In this document: positions 50,654 to 56,817 of the stretch, one piece after another
Position numbering within the stretch: position 1 is the first letter of the stretch
Layout: each line of letters begins with the position of its first letter
Assembly (NCBI GenBank): GCA_964542645.1
Contig: CAZIUG010000008.1
Span: 516,338-580,337, forward strand
Direction of reading: 5' to 3'
Source of the DNA: an uncultured Opitutales bacterium
Lineage (GTDB): Bacteria > Verrucomicrobiota > Verrucomicrobiia > Opitutales > UBA2987
Length of the DNA: 64,000 nucleotides
Notes under the pieces: model-generated
What the model was told of the DNA's origin: nothing
Seen by the model: the letters and a program-made list of their open reading frames with translations, nothing else
Databases searched by the model: none
Made by a program: the position numbers and the translations under genes

Positions 50654-52108
50654 ATGACATTACACGTTCGAATAAGCACCCTCGTCTTGTTCGCCGGTGT
50701 TTTACTCTACTGGCTCTTTGCCGACACATTAAGTCGGCACGGGAAGATCAAAGATGAGCAACCATTGGTGGTGGCTCATTGGGGCGGCTATCAAGCCTAT
50801 CAGATGTGGAAGGAGATCTTTGCGGCGTTTCGTCTGAAACATCCGGAGATCGAGTTTGAAAGTCGCCATATGCCATCGACAAGGTACCACCAGAAGATCC
50901 AACAGCAGATTGTCTCCGACACGGCTCCTGATCTTTTCATGATGGAGAATGAATCCTTTCCAAAACTAATTAAATCGGGCAAGATCGAGAACATTTCTCC
51001 CTTTGTGAAAGCAATGGGTCGATGGGGAGAAGACGGGGAGGATTTGAGGAATCAGTACTGGAATACTGCAATCCGTGATTTCGGCGAATTCAATTCGGCT
51101 AATGGGGACTGGGAGCAATGGGGCATGCCGTTGTATGGCGGGTGTAACTTGCTCTTCTACAATAAGGCGAATTGGAGTCGCGCCCAAATTCGGGTCAGCG
51201 AGAACCCCGATTCTCCCGGCCTCATAAAATCGAATTCGGGTTGGTGGTACGTCAATGACGAGAAGTGGAACCTGGACGAATTCATTGCGGTCTGCAAGCG
51301 GCTGACCATAGATCTGGACGGAGATGGTCGAATCGATCAGTACGGACTATTCGTACCTCAGAAGCATTGGCAGACCTTTCACTGGATCATGGGGGCAAGC
51401 TTTTTGGACGAGACCTATACGCGGTCCACGTTCTATGGGCCGGAATGCGAAGCCTCGTTGGGACTCTGGCAAGATTTCCACCTCAAGAGCAAGGTTATGC
51501 CCACCCCTTCTGCTCTGAGCGCACTGAATACAAATACCGGGTTCTTCACCGGCATGATCTCAATCTTGAACACTAACACCTCGGCTCTGATGTTTCTGAA
51601 TGCGACCGAGGTGGACTATGATACGCTGCATCTCCCCAGGGGCAGTAGCGGAAGGCGTTACACTCGTTTTTTCTGGGAAGGCATGGCTATGAGCAGTCTG
51701 TCTCAAAAAAAAGCTGAAGCGTGGATAATGCTCGATTTTCTGACCTCTATCGAGGCGCAGAAGATCATCGCTGACTACCAGATGTCTCTGCCAAGTCTAA
51801 TCGCCTCGGAACCGTACTTTCTGAAGGGCGGAAAAGATCAGGCCCGAGACGTGGATTTGCACAAATTTATCGAAGCAGCTGAGAGCTATGCTAGACGCCA
51901 GCCTATTAGTTTACACTGGGGGCCGATGACTCGAGCGCTTACCAGATGCTGGGAGTCCCTCATCAGTCAAAACGAGGAATTCCGGATGACCCCTCGACAG
52001 GCCATTGCTCGGTATCTTTTCGAAAGTCCCGACCTCTCAGAAAAACTACCGCCGATTGACCCTGCCGCCGCCGAAGAGTATAGACCGGACTGGGAAGCAA
52101 TACGCTAA
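50654..52108 (+). CDS. ABC-type sugar-binding protein (SBP family 1) with N-terminal membrane anchor
   Basis: N-terminal TM, APDLF, LLFYNK, DLDGDGRIDQYG, AWIMLDFLTS. Confidence 0.82.
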   Translation: MTLHVRISTLVLFAGVLLYWLFADTLSRHGKIKDEQPLVVAHWGGYQAYQMWKEIFAAFRLKHPEIEFESRHMPSTRYHQKIQQQIVSDTAPDLFMMENESFPKLIKSGKIENISPFVKAMGRWGEDGEDLRNQYWNTAIRDFGEFNSANGDWEQWGMPLYGGCNLLFYNKANWSRAQIRVSENPDSPGLIKSNSGWWYVNDEKWNLDEFIAVCKRLTIDLDGDGRIDQYGLFVPQKHWQTFHWIMGASFLDETYTRSTFYGPECEASLGLWQDFHLKSKVMPTPSALSALNTNTGFFTGMISILNTNTSALMFLNATEVDYDTLHLPRGSSGRRYTRFFWEGMAMSSLSQKKAEAWIMLDFLTSIEAQKIIADYQMSLPSLIASEPYFLKGGKDQARDVDLHKFIEAAESYARRQPISLHWGPMTRALTRCWESLISQNEEFRMTPRQAIARYLFESPDLSEKLPPIDPAAAEEYRPDWEAIR

Positions 52109-52321
52109 AGAATGGAAGATTTGGGCTTGCCTGAAAATGGTGAACTTGGAGTAATAGACCCCGCTCCACGTATTTCTGAGAAGTTTGCGTTCATTGGTTC
52201 TTTCCAATTTAGGAAGATTCTTCTTCCCTTGTATCATTTGTGCTCTTCTGTATCCTTGAGGGGTAGAAAATCAAGAGTGCTTGAATGATTGATACCCTGA
52301 TTCATTGATAATAAATAAGAT

Positions 52322-52396
52322 TGCTCGGTAGCTCAGCGGTAGAGCAGGTGGCTGTTAACCACTTGGTCGCAGGTTCGAATCCTGCCCGAGCAGCCA
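52322..52396 (+). tRNA. tRNA-Asn (GTT)
   Basis: Acceptor TGCTCGG/CCGAGCA, anticodon arm GGTGG-CTGTTAA-CCACT, GGTTCGAATCC, discriminator G, CCA. Confidence 0.96.
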
Positions 52397-52531
52397 TTTT
52401 GCCATTCCAAATAGCTGTGGAAAACCATGGAAGGCAGGAGTTAACATTTTGGTTAGAATGGCTCTACTTTTTGTTCAAGACCGAGGACTTGACAACTTTT
52501 GTATAGTGAGCGTGTGTGCAGATCGTCCATA

Positions 52532-52888
52532 ATGAAAGCCGTCAGAAGTTTATTGCATTTGCTCTCAGCTGCTACCGTCTTGCTTTTGCTATATGCAGGC
52601 AGCAGTGGTGATCTGCACAGGCTGCTTCATGAGCATGGAGACAAGGCTGGATCGGGATCCCCCTATGAAGGTTCCTGTAATTCTAATTCCGATGATCCAT
52701 TAGATGAAAGTTCCTGCAACAGCAGTTGTGCTGTTCTTCTATTCTCCAGCGGTCTGGTCCTGAACAATCCAATTGAGCCTATACCCGTCGAAAGGCATCT
52801 GCTGGCGATCCATATTGACAGAACGCCGGACAAACTGGTTCAAGGGGTCCAGATACCGACACAAGCCCGGGCACCACCGGTTCTCTGA
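52532..52888 (+). CDS. Putative metal-responsive leader/arrest peptide (DUF2946/CruR-like) ending in RAPP
   Basis: Signal-like N-terminus, HRLLHEH, SCNSSCAV, C-terminal QARAPPVL-stop, 86 nt upstream of a TonB receptor. Confidence 0.78.
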   Translation: MKAVRSLLHLLSAATVLLLLYAGSSGDLHRLLHEHGDKAGSGSPYEGSCNSNSDDPLDESSCNSSCAVLLFSSGLVLNNPIEPIPVERHLLAIHIDRTPDKLVQGVQIPTQARAPPVL

Positions 52889-52971
52889 AAAATGATCCAT
52901 TTCCATTGGCCTGCCAATTCTGAGCAATCAGATGAGCATGCCTTCGCCTTTTTCATCATTTTAAGAGAACC
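52879..52971 (+). promoter_or_regulatory. Predicted RNA structure sequestering the TonB receptor ribosome-binding region
   Basis: GGTTCTCT (52879-86) pairs with AGAGAACC (52964-71); AAAATGAT (52889-96) pairs with ATCATTTT (52955-62); internal hairpins at 52905-18 and 52919-32. Confidence 0.7.
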
Positions 52972-52974
52972 CTC

Positions 52975-55062
52975 ATGCAATTTTTCAGAAAATCCAAATC
53001 GAAATCCGTTAGATCCGCCATTCTTGGCTCAATCGCTTTCTTACCATCCTTTTCGCTGGCTGACACTAGAACCAGCGATCATTCACATTCTAAAATCCAT
53101 GAACTAGACCCATTTGTCGTTAACGCTTCCCTTACTCCACGGAGTAGTCGTGACATGCTAACACCTACCACGGTGGTTGCTTTGGATAAGCTCGAAATCA
53201 GCTTGGCACCCACACTTGGCGAAGCGTTGGACAACCAACCGGGCGTGAACTCTACTGCCTTCGGCGCAGGGGCCAGCCGACCCGTGATCCGCGGACTGGA
53301 GGGTAACCGCCTACGAGTGATGGAAAGCGGAGTGGACATCGGGGACCTCTCTGCTGACAGCCCCGATCATGCTGTTTCCTTGGAACCGTTCTTCATCGAG
53401 CGTATCGAAATCCTGCGCGGTGCGTCGACACTTCAATTTGGCAGTTCTGCGATTGGAGGTGTCGTCAATGTCATCGACACCCGTATCCCCCGCACCCGAC
53501 CTCCGAAGAATTCCTCACTGGAAGCCATAACAGATTACCAATCATCAGCTGATGGGTGGAGTTTTGGTGGTCTGACAACGGTTTCCATACAGGGTATTGC
53601 TGTTTCGGTAAGCTACCTAGACAGGGACCACAACGATTACTCGATTCCCGGGCATCCCGATCATGATGAGGAACAAACGGAAATCCTTGAGAATTCATTT
53701 CTGGAATCCAAAGCCACCTCTGTAGCTCTTTCATGGTTCGCCTCCGGAAGTACGCGGTTCAGCATCGCTCGGACAACCTACGAATCCCAGTATGGTGTTC
53801 CCTGGCACGAGCACGGCACGCACGAGGAGCATGAAAATGAAGAAAACCACGAAGAACATAAAGAAGAGGAATTGCATCACGAAGACGATGAGCATGGCAT
53901 CTCCATCGATCTAAACCAATCGACAGTGGATCTTGATTTTGAGCATACCATCGAAAACTCTTGGCTAAATGCAATTGAAGGAAGATTGCGGCATGTCGAA
54001 TATGATCACCAGGAACTGGAGGGGGACGAAATTGGAACCGACTTTAACCGTGAATCCACAGAGGCCCGTCTTATCGCCACCTATCTTACCGGACCGAATG
54101 ACCAAGGAGCATTTGGCATACAGTGGCTATCACTCGACTCCATGGCTGTCGGTGAAGAATCGCTCACTCCAGACTCGACCACAACAGACACAGCGCTGTT
54201 CCTATTGCAGGAAATGCAGATCAATAATATCCGCGTTGAAGGAGGCATACGAGTGGAACATCGGGAGATCCAAATAACGGATGACGAAGGTTACGATGGC
54301 TGGGCACTCTCAGGATCACTTGGTGCAAAGATTCAATTGACTGAACATTGGTCGATTGGGACTCTTTTCAATCACGCTGAGCGGCATCCCGTGGCGACAG
54401 AATTGTATGCATCTGGCCCGCACGCTGCTACCCAGCAATTTGAGATTGGCGATTCATCCTTCGATTCTGAATCAGCCAATGGTATTGATTTATCGCTTCA
54501 TTGGGATGCAAGCGACTTGAGCGCCAGCCTAACGGCTTTTCATACTGATTTTTCCGATTTCATCTACGCTGCTCCAACAAAGGATGAGCAACATGGATTT
54601 CGCGTGTACCAGTATACACAGGCAGACACAACCTTCTATGGTCTCGAGGCTGCATTGACCTGGCATGCATGGCAGGCTAGCAATGCCTATTTCGACATCA
54701 GTTTTCAAGTAGACACCGTGAATGCCAATATCGAGAAAACCAACGACCTCCTGCCACGGATTCCCCCATTGCGTCTCGGACCCCGGGTACAATTCGGATC
54801 CAAGGACTGGATGATCAATTCGTCTATTCTCCATAGTTTTCCCCAAGATAGGACATCACCATTCGAAGCCTCCTCCGATGCCTACACCAATTGGTCTGCA
54901 TCCTTGCTAATCGATTTACCATTCCAAACAGGTAATTGGCATCTCATTGTCAGTGGACGAAACCTGCTGGATGAAGAAATTCGTCCCCATACGTCTCCTC
55001 TGAAGGAGGTTGCTCCGGCTCCGGGTAGGCACGTGAAACTTACTCTTTCAACCGCCTTTTAA
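52975..55062 (+). CDS. TonB-dependent receptor, ZnuD-like, with His/Glu-rich loop
   Basis: TLGEAL..QPGV, GASRPVIRG, SPDHAV, IEILRG, ELYASGPHAAT, HEHGTHEEHENEENHEEH loop, terminal F. Confidence 0.88.
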   Translation: MQFFRKSKSKSVRSAILGSIAFLPSFSLADTRTSDHSHSKIHELDPFVVNASLTPRSSRDMLTPTTVVALDKLEISLAPTLGEALDNQPGVNSTAFGAGASRPVIRGLEGNRLRVMESGVDIGDLSADSPDHAVSLEPFFIERIEILRGASTLQFGSSAIGGVVNVIDTRIPRTRPPKNSSLEAITDYQSSADGWSFGGLTTVSIQGIAVSVSYLDRDHNDYSIPGHPDHDEEQTEILENSFLESKATSVALSWFASGSTRFSIARTTYESQYGVPWHEHGTHEEHENEENHEEHKEEELHHEDDEHGISIDLNQSTVDLDFEHTIENSWLNAIEGRLRHVEYDHQELEGDEIGTDFNRESTEARLIATYLTGPNDQGAFGIQWLSLDSMAVGEESLTPDSTTTDTALFLLQEMQINNIRVEGGIRVEHREIQITDDEGYDGWALSGSLGAKIQLTEHWSIGTLFNHAERHPVATELYASGPHAATQQFEIGDSSFDSESANGIDLSLHWDASDLSASLTAFHTDFSDFIYAAPTKDEQHGFRVYQYTQADTTFYGLEAALTWHAWQASNAYFDISFQVDTVNANIEKTNDLLPRIPPLRLGPRVQFGSKDWMINSSILHSFPQDRTSPFEASSDAYTNWSASLLIDLPFQTGNWHLIVSGRNLLDEEIRPHTSPLKEVAPAPGRHVKLTLSTAF

Positions 55063-55189
55063 TCATGGGTAAATGACCCTTTCGAACCACGAATACATTT
55101 TTGCCACGGATTCAATCGGTCCTTAATCTGAACAAATCTGGTCTAGAGCTCGAATTTATACCTACATGGAATGAGCTGCCATTGGACGC

Positions 55190-56305
55190 CTACAGCATCC
55201 GAACGACCAAATCTCCCACAATATACGCGACAATAGCCACCCCAAGTCCAACAGCAAACATATCAGCTCCACTGCGAATAATACTCCGGCCCGTAAAGAT
55301 GCTACGCGTTGCTCCCACGACAAAATGGGATAACATGGAAACAGCGAAGGAGGTCACGATGGCGGACTTACCTTCGAGAAAGAAGAAGGGAGCGACTGGA
55401 ATAAGCGCACCAACCGCCGTGGCTAGCCCAGTGACCCATCCCTCCTTTATGGGTGTGGTGTGGAGATCTCCAATTCTAAATTCTTCTCGGACCAATTCCT
55501 GAAGCGCCCTCTCAGGGTCCTGCATCACCACACTCGCAAGTTCCCTCGCCCTATCTTCATCCATTCCTTTCGACCGGTATATCAGAGTTAGTTCATCCTC
55601 CTCAAGTTCCGGCATGAGCTTGATCTCCTCCTTCTCCATTTCAATCTCATGGGCATAAACCTCCCGCTCGCTCTTAGCAGCAAGGTAACCGGAGGAACCC
55701 ATAGAGAGCGCATCTGCAATCATTCCAGCGATACCTGTGACTAAGATCAGTCGATAGTCCACTGACGCCCCAACAACTCCTGCTACAAGCCCGAAATTCG
55801 CTGTAAGTCCATCATTGAATCCGTAAACAACATTGCGCAAAAAACCACCTGACTCGATCCGATGCCAGGGCTCCCCTGTTTTATCTGCAATCCCGCTCAA
55901 TGTCAGCGCGTGTTGAGCTGACTCTTTGGCCAGTAATAGCGCCGCCTCCTTTGGATTCTCACTTTCACTCTGATTATAGAGAGCCAGATATCCTTTCACT
56001 TCCTGGCCCTCTTCCTTTAGAAGCATCTCTAAAAGCGAACCCGGCCCGTATCGGGAAGCAAACCAGGCTAATAACCGAGCACGCAAAGAGGGTCTCGTCT
56101 CAGGAACCGCAAAGCCCTCATCAGAAATCAAATTTCTCCAAATACTGGCATGTCGATCTTCAACTTCGGCAAGTTTTTGATAGATACCCGACCTCTTCGA
56201 ATCCAACTCAAGTTCAGCCAGCCTTCGATAAAGGAAGGCAGCATCCGCCTCGTCCTGAAGATGATCCTTCCAGACGGTCAAATCCCGTTTTTCAGCTAAT
56301 GCCAT
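55190..56305 (-). CDS. VIT1/CCC1 family transporter with N-terminal rubrerythrin/ferritin-like domain
   Basis: DEADAAFLY, EDRHA, ESAQHA; VYGFNDGL, ALSMGSSGYL, GALIPVAPF. Confidence 0.88.
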   Translation of the reverse strand: MALAEKRDLTVWKDHLQDEADAAFLYRRLAELELDSKRSGIYQKLAEVEDRHASIWRNLISDEGFAVPETRPSLRARLLAWFASRYGPGSLLEMLLKEEGQEVKGYLALYNQSESENPKEAALLLAKESAQHALTLSGIADKTGEPWHRIESGGFLRNVVYGFNDGLTANFGLVAGVVGASVDYRLILVTGIAGMIADALSMGSSGYLAAKSEREVYAHEIEMEKEEIKLMPELEEDELTLIYRSKGMDEDRARELASVVMQDPERALQELVREEFRIGDLHTTPIKEGWVTGLATAVGALIPVAPFFFLEGKSAIVTSFAVSMLSHFVVGATRSIFTGRSIIRSGADMFAVGLGVAIVAYIVGDLVVRML

Positions 56306-56817
56306 ATCTCGATCAAAGGCCCTCTCTCCCCACAAAAAGGATCCATCGGGGGAAGAGGAACACGAGCAATAATCTCATCCTCTCCCGGCCGCTGTCCCTT
56401 CTGACCATAGCACATATCCATCCGTTGACCCCGCGGATAGGCTCCCACCACTCCGAATCGAAAACTTGATCCCAGATTCTTATGAACTACTCCAGATGGA
56501 ATAACCACCGCATCCCCTACTCCTACCTCCTTTTCAATTCCATTTTCTCCGCCAAACTGAAGGACAGCAGTTCCATTGTATATCCCAAGTACCTCGTGAG
56601 TGTTGGCGTGGTAGTGATGGAAACCGTAGACCCCGTTACGCCAGCTGTGGACCCACCCATTCTCAGCCAATAGTTCTTCGAATGCATCTGCCGTTACTTT
56701 TGACGGCGGAATCACCCTCTGGTAATAGAGCAAGGGCAGTGTCCCGTCGGTTGACATTTTCCCGGTACCACCTAGAGGGAAGCTACTGACATTAAGTTCT
56801 TGGGGTTCTATTCGCAT
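56296..56817 (-). CDS. Cupin domain protein (YjlB-like)
   Basis: LPLLYY, WRNGVYGFHHYHANTHEVLG, IPSGVVH, VGAYP; GAGG RBS before ATG 56817. Confidence 0.85.
   Translation of the reverse strand: MRIEPQELNVSSFPLGGTGKMSTDGTLPLLYYQRVIPPSKVTADAFEELLAENGWVHSWRNGVYGFHHYHANTHEVLGIYNGTAVLQFGGENGIEKEVGVGDAVVIPSGVVHKNLGSSFRFGVVGAYPRGQRMDMCYGQKGQRPGEDEIIARVPLPPMDPFCGERGPLIEIWH

What the first reader, a model, noticed from the sequence alone, without database searches (positions are those of the whole stretch)
52532..55062. RAPP arrest-peptide leader controlling a ZnuD-like TonB receptor: candidate non-copper metal-sensing switch
Seen: 118-aa ORF with signal-like N-terminus, HRLLHEH, three Cys (CNSSC rather than CxxC) and RAPP two codons before the stop, 86 nt upstream of a His-rich receptor. 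Established: RAPP-type motifs stall ribosomes (ApdP/ApdA class), and DUF2946 leaders CruR (Bordetella, before a TonB receptor) and CutF (Rhodobacter) use CxxC plus a C-terminal proline motif for copper-responsive control. Inference: an analogous system in a non-proteobacterial lineage sensing periplasmic Zn, Ni or Co through His/Cys on the exported nascent chain; stalling under limitation turns the importer on.
Basis: partly seen in the sequence, partly recalled or inferred. Interest (0 to 1): 0.85.

Follow-up and report, generated by a model that had tools for sequence, protein, structure and literature searches.

The report
Arrest-peptide leader before a zinc receptor
A small exported peptide that ends in the ribosome-stalling motif RAPP sits in front of a zinc-type outer-membrane receptor gene in a marine Verrucomicrobium, and probably switches that receptor's translation on and off according to metal supply.

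Summary
Window 52532-52888 (+) encodes a 118-aa peptide with a hydrophobic N-terminus, LHRLLHEH, Cys49/62/66 and RAPP-Val-Leu-stop. It lies 86 nt before a His-rich TonB-dependent receptor (52975-55062).

It is not chance. A profile of the peptide finds it in 84 of 401 genomes of the same order (87 copies). 66 of 87 end in RAPP or RGPP, and 86 of 87 keep a Pro-Pro near the C-terminus. 84 of 87 are followed by a homologue of this receptor.

The peptide is a distant relative of DUF2946 (CruR/CutF), below Pfam's cut-off. It keeps that family's anatomy, including 46 residues between the Cys and RAPP.

The receptor is ZnuD-like, not CrtA- or OprC-like. All four ZnuD zinc ligands are kept in 19 of 19 receptors checked.

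This helix covaries across loci, so a stalled ribosome would unmask the start.

The metal, the compartment and the direction of control are inferred, not shown. This is a new variant of a known kind. Zinc is the likeliest signal.

The parts
52489..52507 (+). Promoter-like element TTGACA-N7-TATAGT (TGnTATAGT reads as an extended -10), 25 nt before the leader ATG. This is a candidate only.
   Evidence: One search gives 2 matches in the window against 1.7 expected, so it is not significant alone. CTTGAC(A/G) recurs 30-45 nt upstream of many leader homologues in the partial listing. The sigma-70 scan found none.
52532..52888 (+). Leader ORF of 118 aa (P0001): a DUF2946-like arrest-peptide leader.
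52535..52603 (+). N-terminal hydrophobic helix (residues 2-24): a signal peptide or Nin-Cout anchor ending in the conserved AGSS.
   Evidence: The AlphaFold2 helix spans 2-24 with pLDDT about 90. A22 is invariant, and G23 and S25 are nearly invariant. No signal-peptide predictor was available.
52613..52636 (+). LHRLLHEH (residues 28-35). L28, H29 and H33 are invariant; these are proposed metal ligands on one helix face.
   Evidence: Alignment A3. HxxxH is present in 62 of 84 distinct leaders. The model has a helix at 26-37.
52715..52729 (+). CNSSC (Cys62-x3-Cys66). Cys66 is invariant; in most relatives the partner is His at -2 (HxC).
   Evidence: the Cys is present in 84 of 84. In 83 of 84 it lies 45-49 residues before the xxPP motif, and in 42 the distance is exactly 46, as here.
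52868..52879 (+). RAPP arrest motif (Arg113-Ala-Pro-Pro116). The expected stall has Pro115 (52874-52876) in the P site and Pro116 in the A site.
   Evidence: for the motif. The stall geometry is taken from PMC10951233 and PMC12992588. It was not measured here.
52879..52896 (+). 5' arm of the masking helix: the last base of Pro116, then Val, Leu, the first base of the stop (52879-52886), then AAAAUGAU (52889-52896).
   Evidence: MFE -34.7 kcal/mol, z -3.12, with 2 of 200 shuffles as good. Covariation is shown.
52908..52942 (+). Inner hairpin of the intergenic region.
   Evidence: One G:C to A:U double change against the sister genome (columns 42 and 74 of alignment A6).
52955..52971 (+). 3' arm of the masking helix: AUCAUUUU (52955-52962) and AGAGAACC (52964-52971). 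It ends 4 nt before the receptor ATG and covers the place of a ribosome-binding site.
52975..55062 (+). ZnuD-like TonB-dependent receptor, 695 aa.
   Evidence: Pfam Plug and barrel. NCBIfam ZnuD scores 380.6 bits, the best family but below its 950 cut-off. The best PDB match is ZnuD 4rdr at E 3.6e-49, against OprC at 7.3e-6.
53365..53370 (+). Asp131-His132, aligned with ZnuD zinc ligands Asp99-His100.
   Evidence: conserved in 19 of 19.
53791..53898 (+). His/Glu-rich surface loop (residues 273-308; 9 His and 15 Asp+Glu in 36 residues) at the place of ZnuD loop 3.
   Evidence: An acid-rich loop is present in all 19 receptors, with 2-16 His.
54013..54015 (+). Glu347, aligned with ZnuD ligand Glu340.
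   Evidence: 19 of 19.
54421..54423 (+). His483, aligned with ZnuD ligand His499.
   Evidence: 19 of 19.

Best explanation
The 118-aa ORF is a cis-acting regulatory leader, a distant member of the CruR/CutF (DUF2946) kind of metal-sensing arrest peptides. It controls the ZnuD-type zinc receptor gene that follows it.

Proposed sequence of events:
1. The ribosome translating the leader stalls at RAPP, with Pro115 in the P site and Pro116 in the A site.
2. A ribosome parked there covers 52879-52896, the 5' arm of a helix that otherwise pairs with 52955-52971, just upstream of the receptor's ATG.
3. While the stall lasts, the receptor's start region is open and the receptor is made.
4. When the metal is plentiful it binds the nascent chain at His29, His33, Cys62 and Cys66. 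Zinc is the most likely metal, judged from the receptor. At the stall Cys66 sits 49 residues from the peptidyl-transferase centre, just outside the exit tunnel.
5. Metal-induced folding pulls the arrest open, the ribosome terminates and leaves, and the helix re-forms.
6. The receptor's start is masked again. The untranslated, C-rich message may also be ended by Rho.

Shown here: the anatomy, its conservation, the link to the receptor, the covarying helix and its geometry, and the ZnuD-type ligand set.

Inferred: that the motif stalls this organism's ribosome, the identity of the metal, the compartment where it is sensed, and the direction of control (stall = on).
For: Conservation and linkage:
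- The profile of 23 homologues finds the leader in 84 of 401 genomes of the order (87 copies). In a phylum-wide sample of 401 genomes all 30 positives lie in that same order.
- 84 of 87 copies are followed on the same strand by a homologue of the window's receptor.
- In five same-family genomes without a profile hit, four also lack the receptor at E 1e-30. The fifth has the receptor with a more divergent leader ending LARAPPSPASAH.

Arrest motif:
- 36 RAPP and 30 RGPP within 8 residues of the stop. A further RGPP copy, L110, lies 32 residues from its end. The other 20 are RDPP, RSPP, CGPP, HAPP or QAPP.
- RAPP and RGPP are the strongest arresting variants in PMC12992588. That paper also shows CruR arresting with Pro-Pro in the P and A sites (passages).

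Family anatomy:
- The Cys is present in 84 of 84 distinct leaders. In 83 of 84 it lies 45-49 residues before the motif. This matches the 45 +/- 2 spacing that is functionally required in CruR (PMC9426467).
- hhalign of the family against a true PF11162 protein in the same position in genome G080 gives probability 80.9% and E 1.2e-5 over 110 columns.

Helix:
- Window fold: -34.7 kcal/mol, z -3.12.
- Own-arm duplexes average -13.7 kcal/mol against -7.4 for mismatched loci in 30 loci, and -11.25 against -7.42 in 77 loci. 33 of 77 reach -12 or better, against 9.9% of cross pairs; Mann-Whitney p 2.5e-11.
- In a covariance-model alignment, 11 of 16 pairs change on both sides, 97.3% of cells are paired, and 0 of 500 shuffles reach this.
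- In the 33 strong cases the 5' arm starts +4 to +9 from the first base of the P-site codon (+6 in 19). The 3' arm ends 1-16 nt before the AUG (7 nt in 13).
- The true DUF2946 locus L005 has the same arrangement (z -4.83).

Receptor: the ZnuD evidence is given under parts.
Against: - No experiment was done. Stalling, metal response and direction are inferred by homology and geometry.
- The window's peptide scores 13.9 bits against PF11162 (cut-off 23.7). The whole-genome family search did not pick it up at E 0.1.
- The helix is weak or absent in 44 of 77 loci. These are mainly the RGPPH(L/R)F and RDPP clades and the loci with 100-180 nt spacers. Ten of the 87 loci were dropped from that test.
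- MAFFT plus RNAalifold on five close loci did not recover the helix. The covariation count rests on 7 rows fitted to the model, one of which is dubious and one misaligned.
- Cys62 is not conserved; only 3 of 84 leaders have CxxxC.
- The true DUF2946 leader before the same receptor type in G080 has CxxC, a copper-type motif.
- The receptor is far below NCBIfam's ZnuD cut-off (380.6 against 950). No ZnuA-family binding protein was found in the genome, and no Zur box was identified.
- The leader has an export signal, and Sec-driven pulling could release the arrest regardless of metal.
Confidence: 0.6

Rival explanations
1. It is an ordinary CruR orthologue. The leader senses copper through its cysteines, and copper relieves the arrest. 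The output is Rho-dependent termination in the spacer, as in Bordetella, rather than masking of the start codon.
For: There is a distant DUF2946 relationship with the same Cys-RAPP spacing. A true DUF2946 leader with CxxC sits before the same receptor type in G080. The spacer and the first 170 nt of the receptor gene are C-rich and G-poor, as rut sites are: GC skew runs from -0.26 to -0.47 over 52900-53140. The CruR mechanism is in PMC9426467.
Against: The receptor is ZnuD-like with all four zinc ligands. It matches OprC's family only at 48 bits against a 472 cut-off and OprC's structure at E 7.3e-6. CrtA/BfrG is described as a cluster distinct from all TonB-dependent transporters of known structure (PMC12914433). 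The conserved ligands are mostly His (HxxxH, HxC). The covarying helix that masks the start has no role in the CruR model. Rho termination could still act in addition.
Confidence: 0.15
2. The peptide is mainly a working exported protein, for example a periplasmic or membrane-tethered metal-binding partner of the receptor. The C-terminal Pro-Pro only slows translation or couples the two genes, with no metal-dependent switch.
For: The export signal and the His/Cys motifs are conserved. The N-terminal 34 codons are 98-100% identical at the DNA level between the two sister genomes. A metatranscriptome contig covers 52541-52779.
Against: Apart from two N-terminal helices the protein is predicted disordered (mean pLDDT 60.5), as reported for CruR. 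Sequence between the Cys and RAPP is not conserved, but its length is. That fits a ruler between sensor and ribosome, not a fold. The post-RAPP codons are constrained by RNA pairing. CruR and CutF were not detectable as stable proteins.
Confidence: 0.12
3. It follows CutF-type logic. Metal binding to the exported part of the nascent chain prolongs the stall, so the receptor is induced by the metal rather than by its lack.
For: CutF has the same parts: a signal peptide, CxxxC, a Pro-rich end and a stem-loop over the next gene's ribosome-binding site (PMC9973294 and the 2025 preprint). The window's leader has CxxxC like CutF.
Against: Inducing an importer when its substrate is plentiful is the wrong direction for homeostasis. 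CruR, the one characterised leader before a receptor, is relieved by the metal. No data here decide the direction.
Confidence: 0.08

Closest known systems
CruR (Bp2923) of Bordetella pertussis, DUF2946. PMC9426467 (abstract and passages read); arrest shown in vitro in PMC12992588.
   Same: [quoted passage not shown] It is followed by a TonB-dependent receptor, and stalling keeps the importer on.
   Different: CruR has CxxC and senses copper. Its receptor is CrtA/BfrG, a separate family followed by a PepSY_TM gene. Its output is Rho-dependent termination in a 162-nt spacer. Here the motifs are HxxxH plus CxxxC or HxC, the receptor is ZnuD-like and usually the last gene, and an 86-nt spacer forms a helix that masks the start. 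The Pfam score is below cut-off.
CutF of Rhodobacter capsulatus, DUF2946. PMC9973294 (passages read); bioRxiv 10.1101/2025.02.05.636593 (abstract read).
   Same: It has a signal peptide, CxxxC, a C-terminal Pro-rich stall and a stem-loop that hides the next gene's ribosome-binding site and is opened by the stalled ribosome. The same paper already notes clusters with His-based sites and possible non-copper metals.
   Different: CutF controls a copper-detoxifying oxidase and is stalled by copper. Its motif is PPP-type and needs EF-P. Here the target is an importer, so the opposite direction is expected. Zinc is not mentioned in that paper's main text.
RAPP/RGPP uORFs upstream of TonB-dependent receptors, surveyed in PMC12992588 (passages read).
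   Same: These are small proteins with signal peptides and RAPP/RGPP near the C-terminus, upstream of TonB receptor genes, reported across Gram-negative phyla.
   Different: The main text I read names no zinc receptor and describes no masking helix. Verrucomicrobiota appears only in a figure legend on motif avoidance. Its source data and supplements were not visible to me and may list this clade.
ApdA/ApdP and SecM arrest peptides. PMC10951233 and PMC7897499; the first in passages, the second from the search listing only.
   Same: [quoted passage not shown] They have an export signal, and the stall opens the downstream gene's start region.
   Different: Those monitor Sec/YidC activity and precede secretion genes. 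Here the downstream gene is a metal receptor, and the leader carries conserved metal ligands.
ZnuD of Neisseria meningitidis. PDB 4rdr; PMC4557270 (passages read).
   Same: It is the best structural relative of the receptor. Asp99, His100, Glu340 and His499 all align with identical residues. There is a His/acid-rich loop at the place of loop 3.
   Different: The score is only 170.9 bits (E 3.6e-49). The receptor is below NCBIfam's ZnuD cut-off. The passages I read did not cover how ZnuD is regulated; Zur control and the lack of an arrest leader there are from recall, not from a call.

Membership tests
DUF2946 (Pfam PF11162; CruR/CutF-like) | Score at or above Pfam's gathering threshold (23.7 bits) | tested here: not met
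   The window's peptide scores 13.9 bits, E 0.096, although the match is end-to-end (11-116 on profile 9-117 of 117). 4 of 13 relatives match at E up to 1, the best at 5.2e-4; 5 of 13 match DUF6153. The family is not found in its own genome at E 0.1.
DUF2946 (Pfam PF11162; CruR/CutF-like) | Profile-level homology to a bona fide member | tested here: met
   hhalign of A3 against the 120-aa PF11162 protein of G080 (25.7 bits, over cut-off) gives probability 80.9% and E 1.2e-5 over 110 columns. That protein occupies the same position before the same receptor type.
DUF2946 (Pfam PF11162; CruR/CutF-like) | Conserved Cys motif (CxxC in CruR, CxxxC in CutF) | tested here: met
   The window has CNSSC at 62-66. 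Cys66 is present in 84 of 84 relatives, but the second ligand is usually His (HxC); CxxxC occurs in 3 of 84.
DUF2946 (Pfam PF11162; CruR/CutF-like) | C-terminal RAPP or Pro-rich motif a few residues before the stop | tested here: met
   The window ends RAPP+VL. 66 of 87 relatives have RAPP/RGPP within 8 residues of the stop, and 20 have another xxPP.
DUF2946 (Pfam PF11162; CruR/CutF-like) | Spacing of about 45 residues (+/- 1-2) between the Cys motif and RAPP | tested here: met
   46 residues in the window. 45-49 in 83 of 84 relatives, with a mode of 46. CruR has 45.
DUF2946 (Pfam PF11162; CruR/CutF-like) | N-terminal signal peptide or Nin-Cout segment | tested here: inconclusive
   There are a basic N-terminus, a 16-residue hydrophobic core and AGS-S. 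The model has a helix at 2-24 with pLDDT 90. No signal-peptide predictor was available.
DUF2946 (Pfam PF11162; CruR/CutF-like) | Copper-dependent control of the downstream gene | not testable with these tools
   This needs a reporter or cell-free assay.
RAPP-type ribosome arrest peptides (ApdA/ApdP class) | [quoted passage not shown] | not testable with these tools
   The motif is present and conserved. Stalling is taken from PMC10951233 and PMC12992588.
RAPP-type ribosome arrest peptides (ApdA/ApdP class) | Encoded upstream of a Sec/YidC pathway gene | tested here: not met
   The downstream gene is a TonB-dependent receptor.
ZnuD zinc receptors (NCBIfam NF038289) | Score at or above the curated cut-off (950 bits) | tested here: not met
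   380.6 bits over positions 16-681 of 685. It is the best of 31 families and the only such gene in the genome.
ZnuD zinc receptors (NCBIfam NF038289) | High-affinity zinc site Asp99, His100, Glu340, His499 | tested here: met
   These align with Asp131, His132, Glu347 and His483. They are identical in 19 of 19 receptors next to leader homologues.
ZnuD zinc receptors (NCBIfam NF038289) | His/Asp/Glu-rich extracellular loop 3 | tested here: met
   Residues 273-308 hold 9 His and 15 Asp+Glu. A comparable loop is present in all 19 receptors.
ZnuD zinc receptors (NCBIfam NF038289) | Zinc or Zur regulation | tested here: inconclusive
   A Fur-family gene follows the receptor in 4 of 20 loci, but its subtype is unresolved. 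No Zur box was recognised upstream of the window's leader.
Copper receptors OprC (TIGR01778) and CrtA/BfrG | Family-level sequence match | tested here: not met
   TIGR01778 scores 48 bits against a 472 cut-off. The OprC structure 6fom matches at E 7.3e-6, against ZnuD at 3.6e-49. No CrtA sequence could be fetched. Its paper places it apart from all transporters of known structure.

The most novel reading that the evidence does not exclude
This is a natural zinc-sensing arrest peptide. A His2-Cys(His)-Cys site on the nascent chain, held a fixed 46 residues from RAPP, folds around zinc as it leaves the ribosome and pulls the arrest open. Translation of a ZnuD-type zinc receptor is therefore switched directly by zinc, through a helix that masks the start codon, without a protein regulator. 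That would be the first non-copper member of the CruR/CutF kind with a defined target. It would also be a natural counterpart of the laboratory finding that zinc-dependent folding of a zinc finger releases SecM arrest (PMC4571824; seen only in a search listing, details recalled).
Probability: 0.4. Interest if true: 0.75.

Novelty: new variant of a known kind. Interest (0 to 1): 0.6.

Why it matters
Metal-sensing arrest peptides are a young class, and both characterised members (CruR and CutF) sense copper. This locus offers a compact, well-conserved test case: 87 natural variants within one bacterial order. Here the same kind of device is attached to a zinc-type receptor. The sensor residues have shifted from Cys towards His, and the output can be read from the RNA, because a covarying helix ties the post-RAPP codons to the receptor's start.

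If zinc is the signal, the class extends to a second essential metal. It would also show how a fixed ruler between sensor and arrest motif is reused. Marine Verrucomicrobia would then adjust zinc uptake at the level of translation.

The clade-specific motif variants (RDPP, RSPP, CGPP, HAPP, QAPP) are also a natural series for asking which sequences can arrest a ribosome.

Tried and rejected
Dead ends and negative results:
I used the genome search with A3 instead.
- The taxonomy copy has no entry for Candidatus Moanabacter.
- The sigma-70 scan found no promoter in 52000-55400. The three terminator-like sites equal the chance expectation, and none lies in the spacer.
- MAFFT plus RNAalifold on five close loci found no long-range helix because the spacers align badly. 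The helix was then tested by a mismatched-locus permutation and by a covariance model.
- The search for what follows the receptor gave no metal-transport operon. In 20 enlarged loci the next gene is often convergent. The hits were a Fur-family gene in 4, DUF5069 in 2, ThuA in 1, and cytochrome bd, RuvC, TauE or a kinase further on. The Fur subtype could not be assigned.
- I looked by eye for a Zur or Fur box upstream of the leaders and found none I could defend. The script stopped early with an error, so only 21 of the 30 loci were printed.
- The 135 nt upstream of the leader is poorly conserved between the two sister genomes (50% ungapped). The ungapped receptor figure in that call (0.28) is meaningless because of an indel.
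- The structure prediction gave no fold beyond two N-terminal helices, so no fold search was run.
- RNA libraries: only short Logan contigs were found. One of 240 nt lies on 52541-52779 in X20, and two of 151 nt lie inside the receptor gene in X19. None bridges leader and receptor, and DNA carry-over cannot be excluded. The uncovered parts say nothing.
- The second R[AG]PP-ended ORF in the genome (contig C7, 50 aa) looks like chance.
- Searches for papers that link ZnuD with DUF2946, or CruR with zinc, found two papers that hold the first pair of words without linking them and none for the second.
- Supplements are closed. Lists in PMC9973294, PMC9426467 and PMC12992588 may include this clade.

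Full report
**What is there.** The ATG at 52532 opens a 118-aa frame ending at 52888.
- It has a basic and hydrophobic N-terminus and the motif LHRLLHEH at residues 28-35.
- It has three cysteines (49, 62, 66; CNSSC at 62-66).
- It ends in Arg113-Ala-Pro-Pro116 (52868-52879), followed by Val, Leu and TGA.
- A tRNA-Asn gene lies just upstream (52322-52396).
- After 86 nt comes a 695-aa TonB-dependent receptor (52975-55062) with Plug and barrel domains.
- The next gene is convergent: a VIT1-family gene at 55190-56335 on the minus strand. The unit is therefore leader plus receptor.

**Is it more than chance?** Alone, no. Of 9914 mechanical ORFs of 50-250 aa in this 2.7-Mb genome, 2 carry R[AG]PP in their last 12 residues, and scrambled control motifs give 2-6. 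Conservation settles it.
- The word-indexed protein search found one relative, 84% identical, named by its source as a hypothetical protein of Candidatus Moanabacter tarae. It ends in the same ARAPPVL.
- The exhaustive HMMER search found 11 cluster representatives, and a profile search found 17 proteins.
- In the 23-sequence alignment A3 the invariant positions are Ala22, Leu28, His29, His33, Cys66, Gly74, Arg113, Pro115 and Pro116.
- With that profile, 84 of 401 genomes sampled from the window's order have a match, 87 copies in all. In a phylum-wide sample of 401 genomes, all 30 positives belong to that same order.
- I fetched all 87 copies. Their C-terminal motifs are RAPP in 36 and RGPP in 30, each 2-7 residues before the stop. 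The rest are RDPP in 9, CGPP in 5, RSPP in 3, HAPP in 2 and QAPP in 1. One copy, L110, has RGPP 32 residues from its end.
- 84 of 87 are followed on the same strand by a homologue of the window's receptor. The three exceptions are partial matches in two genomes.
- Among five genomes of the window's own family without a profile hit, four also lack the receptor at E 1e-30. The fifth has the receptor preceded by a more divergent leader with EQHSNIH, GHTC and LARAPPSPASAH.

**Relation to DUF2946.**
- The peptide matches Pfam PF11162 from end to end, but at 13.9 bits against a cut-off of 23.7. 4 of 13 relatives match at E up to 1. A whole-genome search with the family misses the window's own copy. 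Strict Pfam membership is therefore not met.
- The same search found a 120-aa protein over the cut-off in genome G080 of the same order. Its source names it as from a Puniceicoccaceae bacterium, and it is precomputed as PF11162.
- That protein has PLHIALEH, CPIC and SRAPPVQIAA, and it sits directly before the same His-rich receptor type. hhalign of A3 against it gives probability 80.9% and E 1.2e-5 over 110 columns.
- The family's functional hallmark also holds. In CruR the CxxC and RAPP motifs are 45 residues apart. [quoted passage not shown] Here the Cys is 46 residues before Arg113. It is 45-49 residues before the motif in 83 of 84 distinct leaders.
- I therefore read the leader as a divergent branch of the CruR/CutF kind.
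CutF itself has CxxxC (PMC9973294). Across the 84 leaders the second ligand next to the invariant Cys is usually His two residues before it (HxC). CxxxC occurs in only 3, and HxxxH near the N-terminus in 62. The conserved ligand set is thus His-rich.
- AlphaFold2 on A3 gives only two confident helices (2-24 and 26-37) and disorder elsewhere (mean pLDDT 60.5). CruR was reported as similarly unstructured.

**The receptor.**
- NCBIfam's best family is ZnuD (380.6 bits over nearly the whole model), well below that model's cut-off of 950. The copper receptor model TIGR01778 gives 48 bits.
- Among solved structures ZnuD (4rdr) stands alone at E 3.6e-49. The next best is BtuB at 4e-10, and OprC is at 7.3e-6.
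- ZnuD's buried high-affinity zinc site is made of Asp99, His100, Glu340 and His499 (PMC4557270, passages). In the HMMER alignment these fall on Asp131, His132, Glu347 and His483 of the window's receptor.
- All four are identical in 19 of 19 full-length receptors next to leader homologues, and all 19 have a His/acid-rich insertion at the place of ZnuD's loop 3.
- CruR's own receptor, BfrG, now called CrtA, is described as a cluster distinct from all transporters of known structure (PMC12914433).
- The genome has this single ZnuD-like gene, three Fur-family genes and no ZnuA-family binding protein.
- A Fur-family gene follows the receptor in 4 of 20 enlarged loci, but its subtype is unresolved.

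**The RNA.**
- Folding 52865-53000 gives -34.7 kcal/mol (z -3.12; 2 of 200 shuffles as good). The structure is a two-part long-range helix. 52879-52886 (the last base of Pro116, Val, Leu and the first base of the stop) pairs with 52964-52971. 52889-52896 pairs with 52955-52962. The receptor's ATG is at 52975.
- The same arrangement, with different sequences, appears in most of the 30 loci first fetched.
- As a test that needs no alignment, I computed duplex energies between each locus's post-stall segment and the 30 nt before each locus's receptor start. In 30 loci the own pairs average -13.7 kcal/mol against -7.4 for mismatched pairs, and 12 of 30 own pairs are the best of their row.
- In 77 of the 87 loci the figures are -11.25 against -7.42. 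33 of 77 own pairs reach -12 or better, against 9.9% of cross pairs (Mann-Whitney p 2.5e-11). Ten loci were dropped: six where my rule found no start codon, one without a terminal Pro-Pro, and three without a receptor.
- Loci are related, so the p-value overstates independence.
- A covariance model built from the window and its sister genome recovered four more loci plus one dubious hit. On that model-fitted alignment of 7 rows, 97.3% of cells pair and 11 of 16 pairs change on both sides. 0 of 500 shuffles reach this, and slid controls give 40-56% paired.
- In the 33 strong cases the 5' arm begins +4 to +9 from the first base of the P-site Pro codon (+6 in 19). The 3' arm ends 1-16 nt before the AUG (7 nt in 13).
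- A ribosome arrested with Pro-Pro in the P and A sites protects roughly 15 nt downstream; that footprint figure is from my own knowledge. It would therefore hold the 5' arm and free the receptor's start region.
- The true DUF2946 locus in G080 folds the same way (z -4.83).
- The helix is weak or absent in 44 of 77 loci. These are mostly the RGPPH(L/R)F and RDPP clades and the loci with long spacers. The output may differ there.
- The spacer and the early receptor gene are C-rich and G-poor (GC skew -0.26 to -0.47), so a Rho component as in CruR cannot be excluded.

**How it most likely works.**
- Shown: anatomy, conservation, linkage, helix and geometry.
- Inferred: the rest.
- I commit to CruR-type logic with a CutF/SecM-type output. 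Without metal the ribosome stays arrested at RAPP, the helix cannot form, and the receptor is translated.
- When metal is present, it binds His29, His33, Cys62 and Cys66 of the nascent chain. The fixed 46-residue ruler puts Cys66 just outside the exit tunnel. Binding folds the chain, releases the arrest and lets the helix mask the start.
- Zinc is favoured by the receptor's ligand set and by the His-rich sensor. Copper is not excluded.
- Whether sensing is cytoplasmic (as proposed for CruR, which works without its signal peptide) or periplasmic (as proposed for CutF) cannot be told from sequence.

**What is known already.**
- DUF2946 leaders before TonB receptors, CruR's RAPP arrest, and CutF's stem-loop unmasking are published.
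- PMC12992588 reports RAPP/RGPP uORFs with signal peptides upstream of TonB receptor genes 'universally' in Gram-negative bacteria.
- PMC9973294 notes clusters with His-based sites and possible nickel or cobalt sensing.
- None of the main texts I searched mentions zinc or Verrucomicrobiota in this connection.
- Library searches for ZnuD with DUF2946, and for CruR with zinc, gave no paper that links them.
- I therefore file this as a new variant of a known kind.

**Expression.** The evidence is thin. One 240-nt contig from an RNA library lies on 52541-52779, and two 151-nt contigs from another lie inside the receptor gene. None bridges the two genes.

Noticed in passing
window 52322-52396: A tRNA-Asn(GTT) gene lies 135 nt upstream of the leader. 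The sister genome has the same tRNA 3' end in the same place, so the leader's promoter must lie within those 135 nt.
   Followed up: partly
window 52489-52507; loci L035, L037, L040-L045, L049, L050, L055: A CTTGAC(A/G) element, often followed after 7 nt by TAnnnT, recurs 30-45 nt upstream of the leader start in many loci. The 7-nt spacing is not that of a sigma-70 promoter. TGnTATAGT in the window reads as an extended -10. The script that printed these regions stopped early. In the window the pattern is no more frequent than chance.
   Followed up: partly
loci L101, L104, L114, L117-L119, L121, L122, L134 (RDPP); L103, L105, L111 (RSPP); L106, L116, L127, L132, L135 (CGPP); L123, L124 (HAPP); L128 (QAPP): Whole clades of the leader family replace RAPP/RGPP by ARDPP, ARSPP, CGPP, HAPP or QAPP at the same distance from the Cys and from the stop. 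Whether these motifs arrest a ribosome is unknown. In these clades the masking helix is mostly weak.
   Followed up: partly
loci L066 5401-5835 (-), L070 4306-4782 (+), L074 4126-4560 (+), L077 4103-4540 (+): A Fur-family regulator gene follows the receptor on the same strand in 4 of 20 enlarged loci, giving leader, receptor and Fur-like gene in a row. NCBIfam cannot tell Zur from Fur or PerR. DUF5069 proteins follow in 2 other loci.
   Followed up: partly
window 55190-56335 (-): The convergent neighbour is a VIT1/CCC1-family iron/manganese transporter (209.9 bits) with a weak N-terminal rubrerythrin-like match.
   Followed up: no
window 52532-52633 and locus L002: The first 34 codons of the leader (signal sequence and LHRLLH) are 98-100% identical at the DNA level between the two sister genomes. 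The rest of the ORF is 80-90% identical, and third codon positions overall are 84% identical. This suggests extra constraint on this stretch.
   Followed up: no
locus L110 (G112:C9): One copy has RGPP 32 residues before the end of its frame instead of 2-7, as if the stop had been lost or the frame shifted. It is a second copy in its genome.
   Followed up: no
genome contig C7 455662-455814 (+): This is the only other ORF of 50-250 aa in the genome with R[AG]PP in its last 12 residues. It is 50 aa and ends ...GRVRAPP. No Sec/YidC-type RAPP leader was seen in this genome by this crude scan.
   Followed up: no
window 52900-53140: There is a C-rich, G-poor stretch (GC skew -0.26 to -0.47) over the spacer and the first 170 nt of the receptor gene. 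This composition fits a Rho loading site.
   Followed up: no
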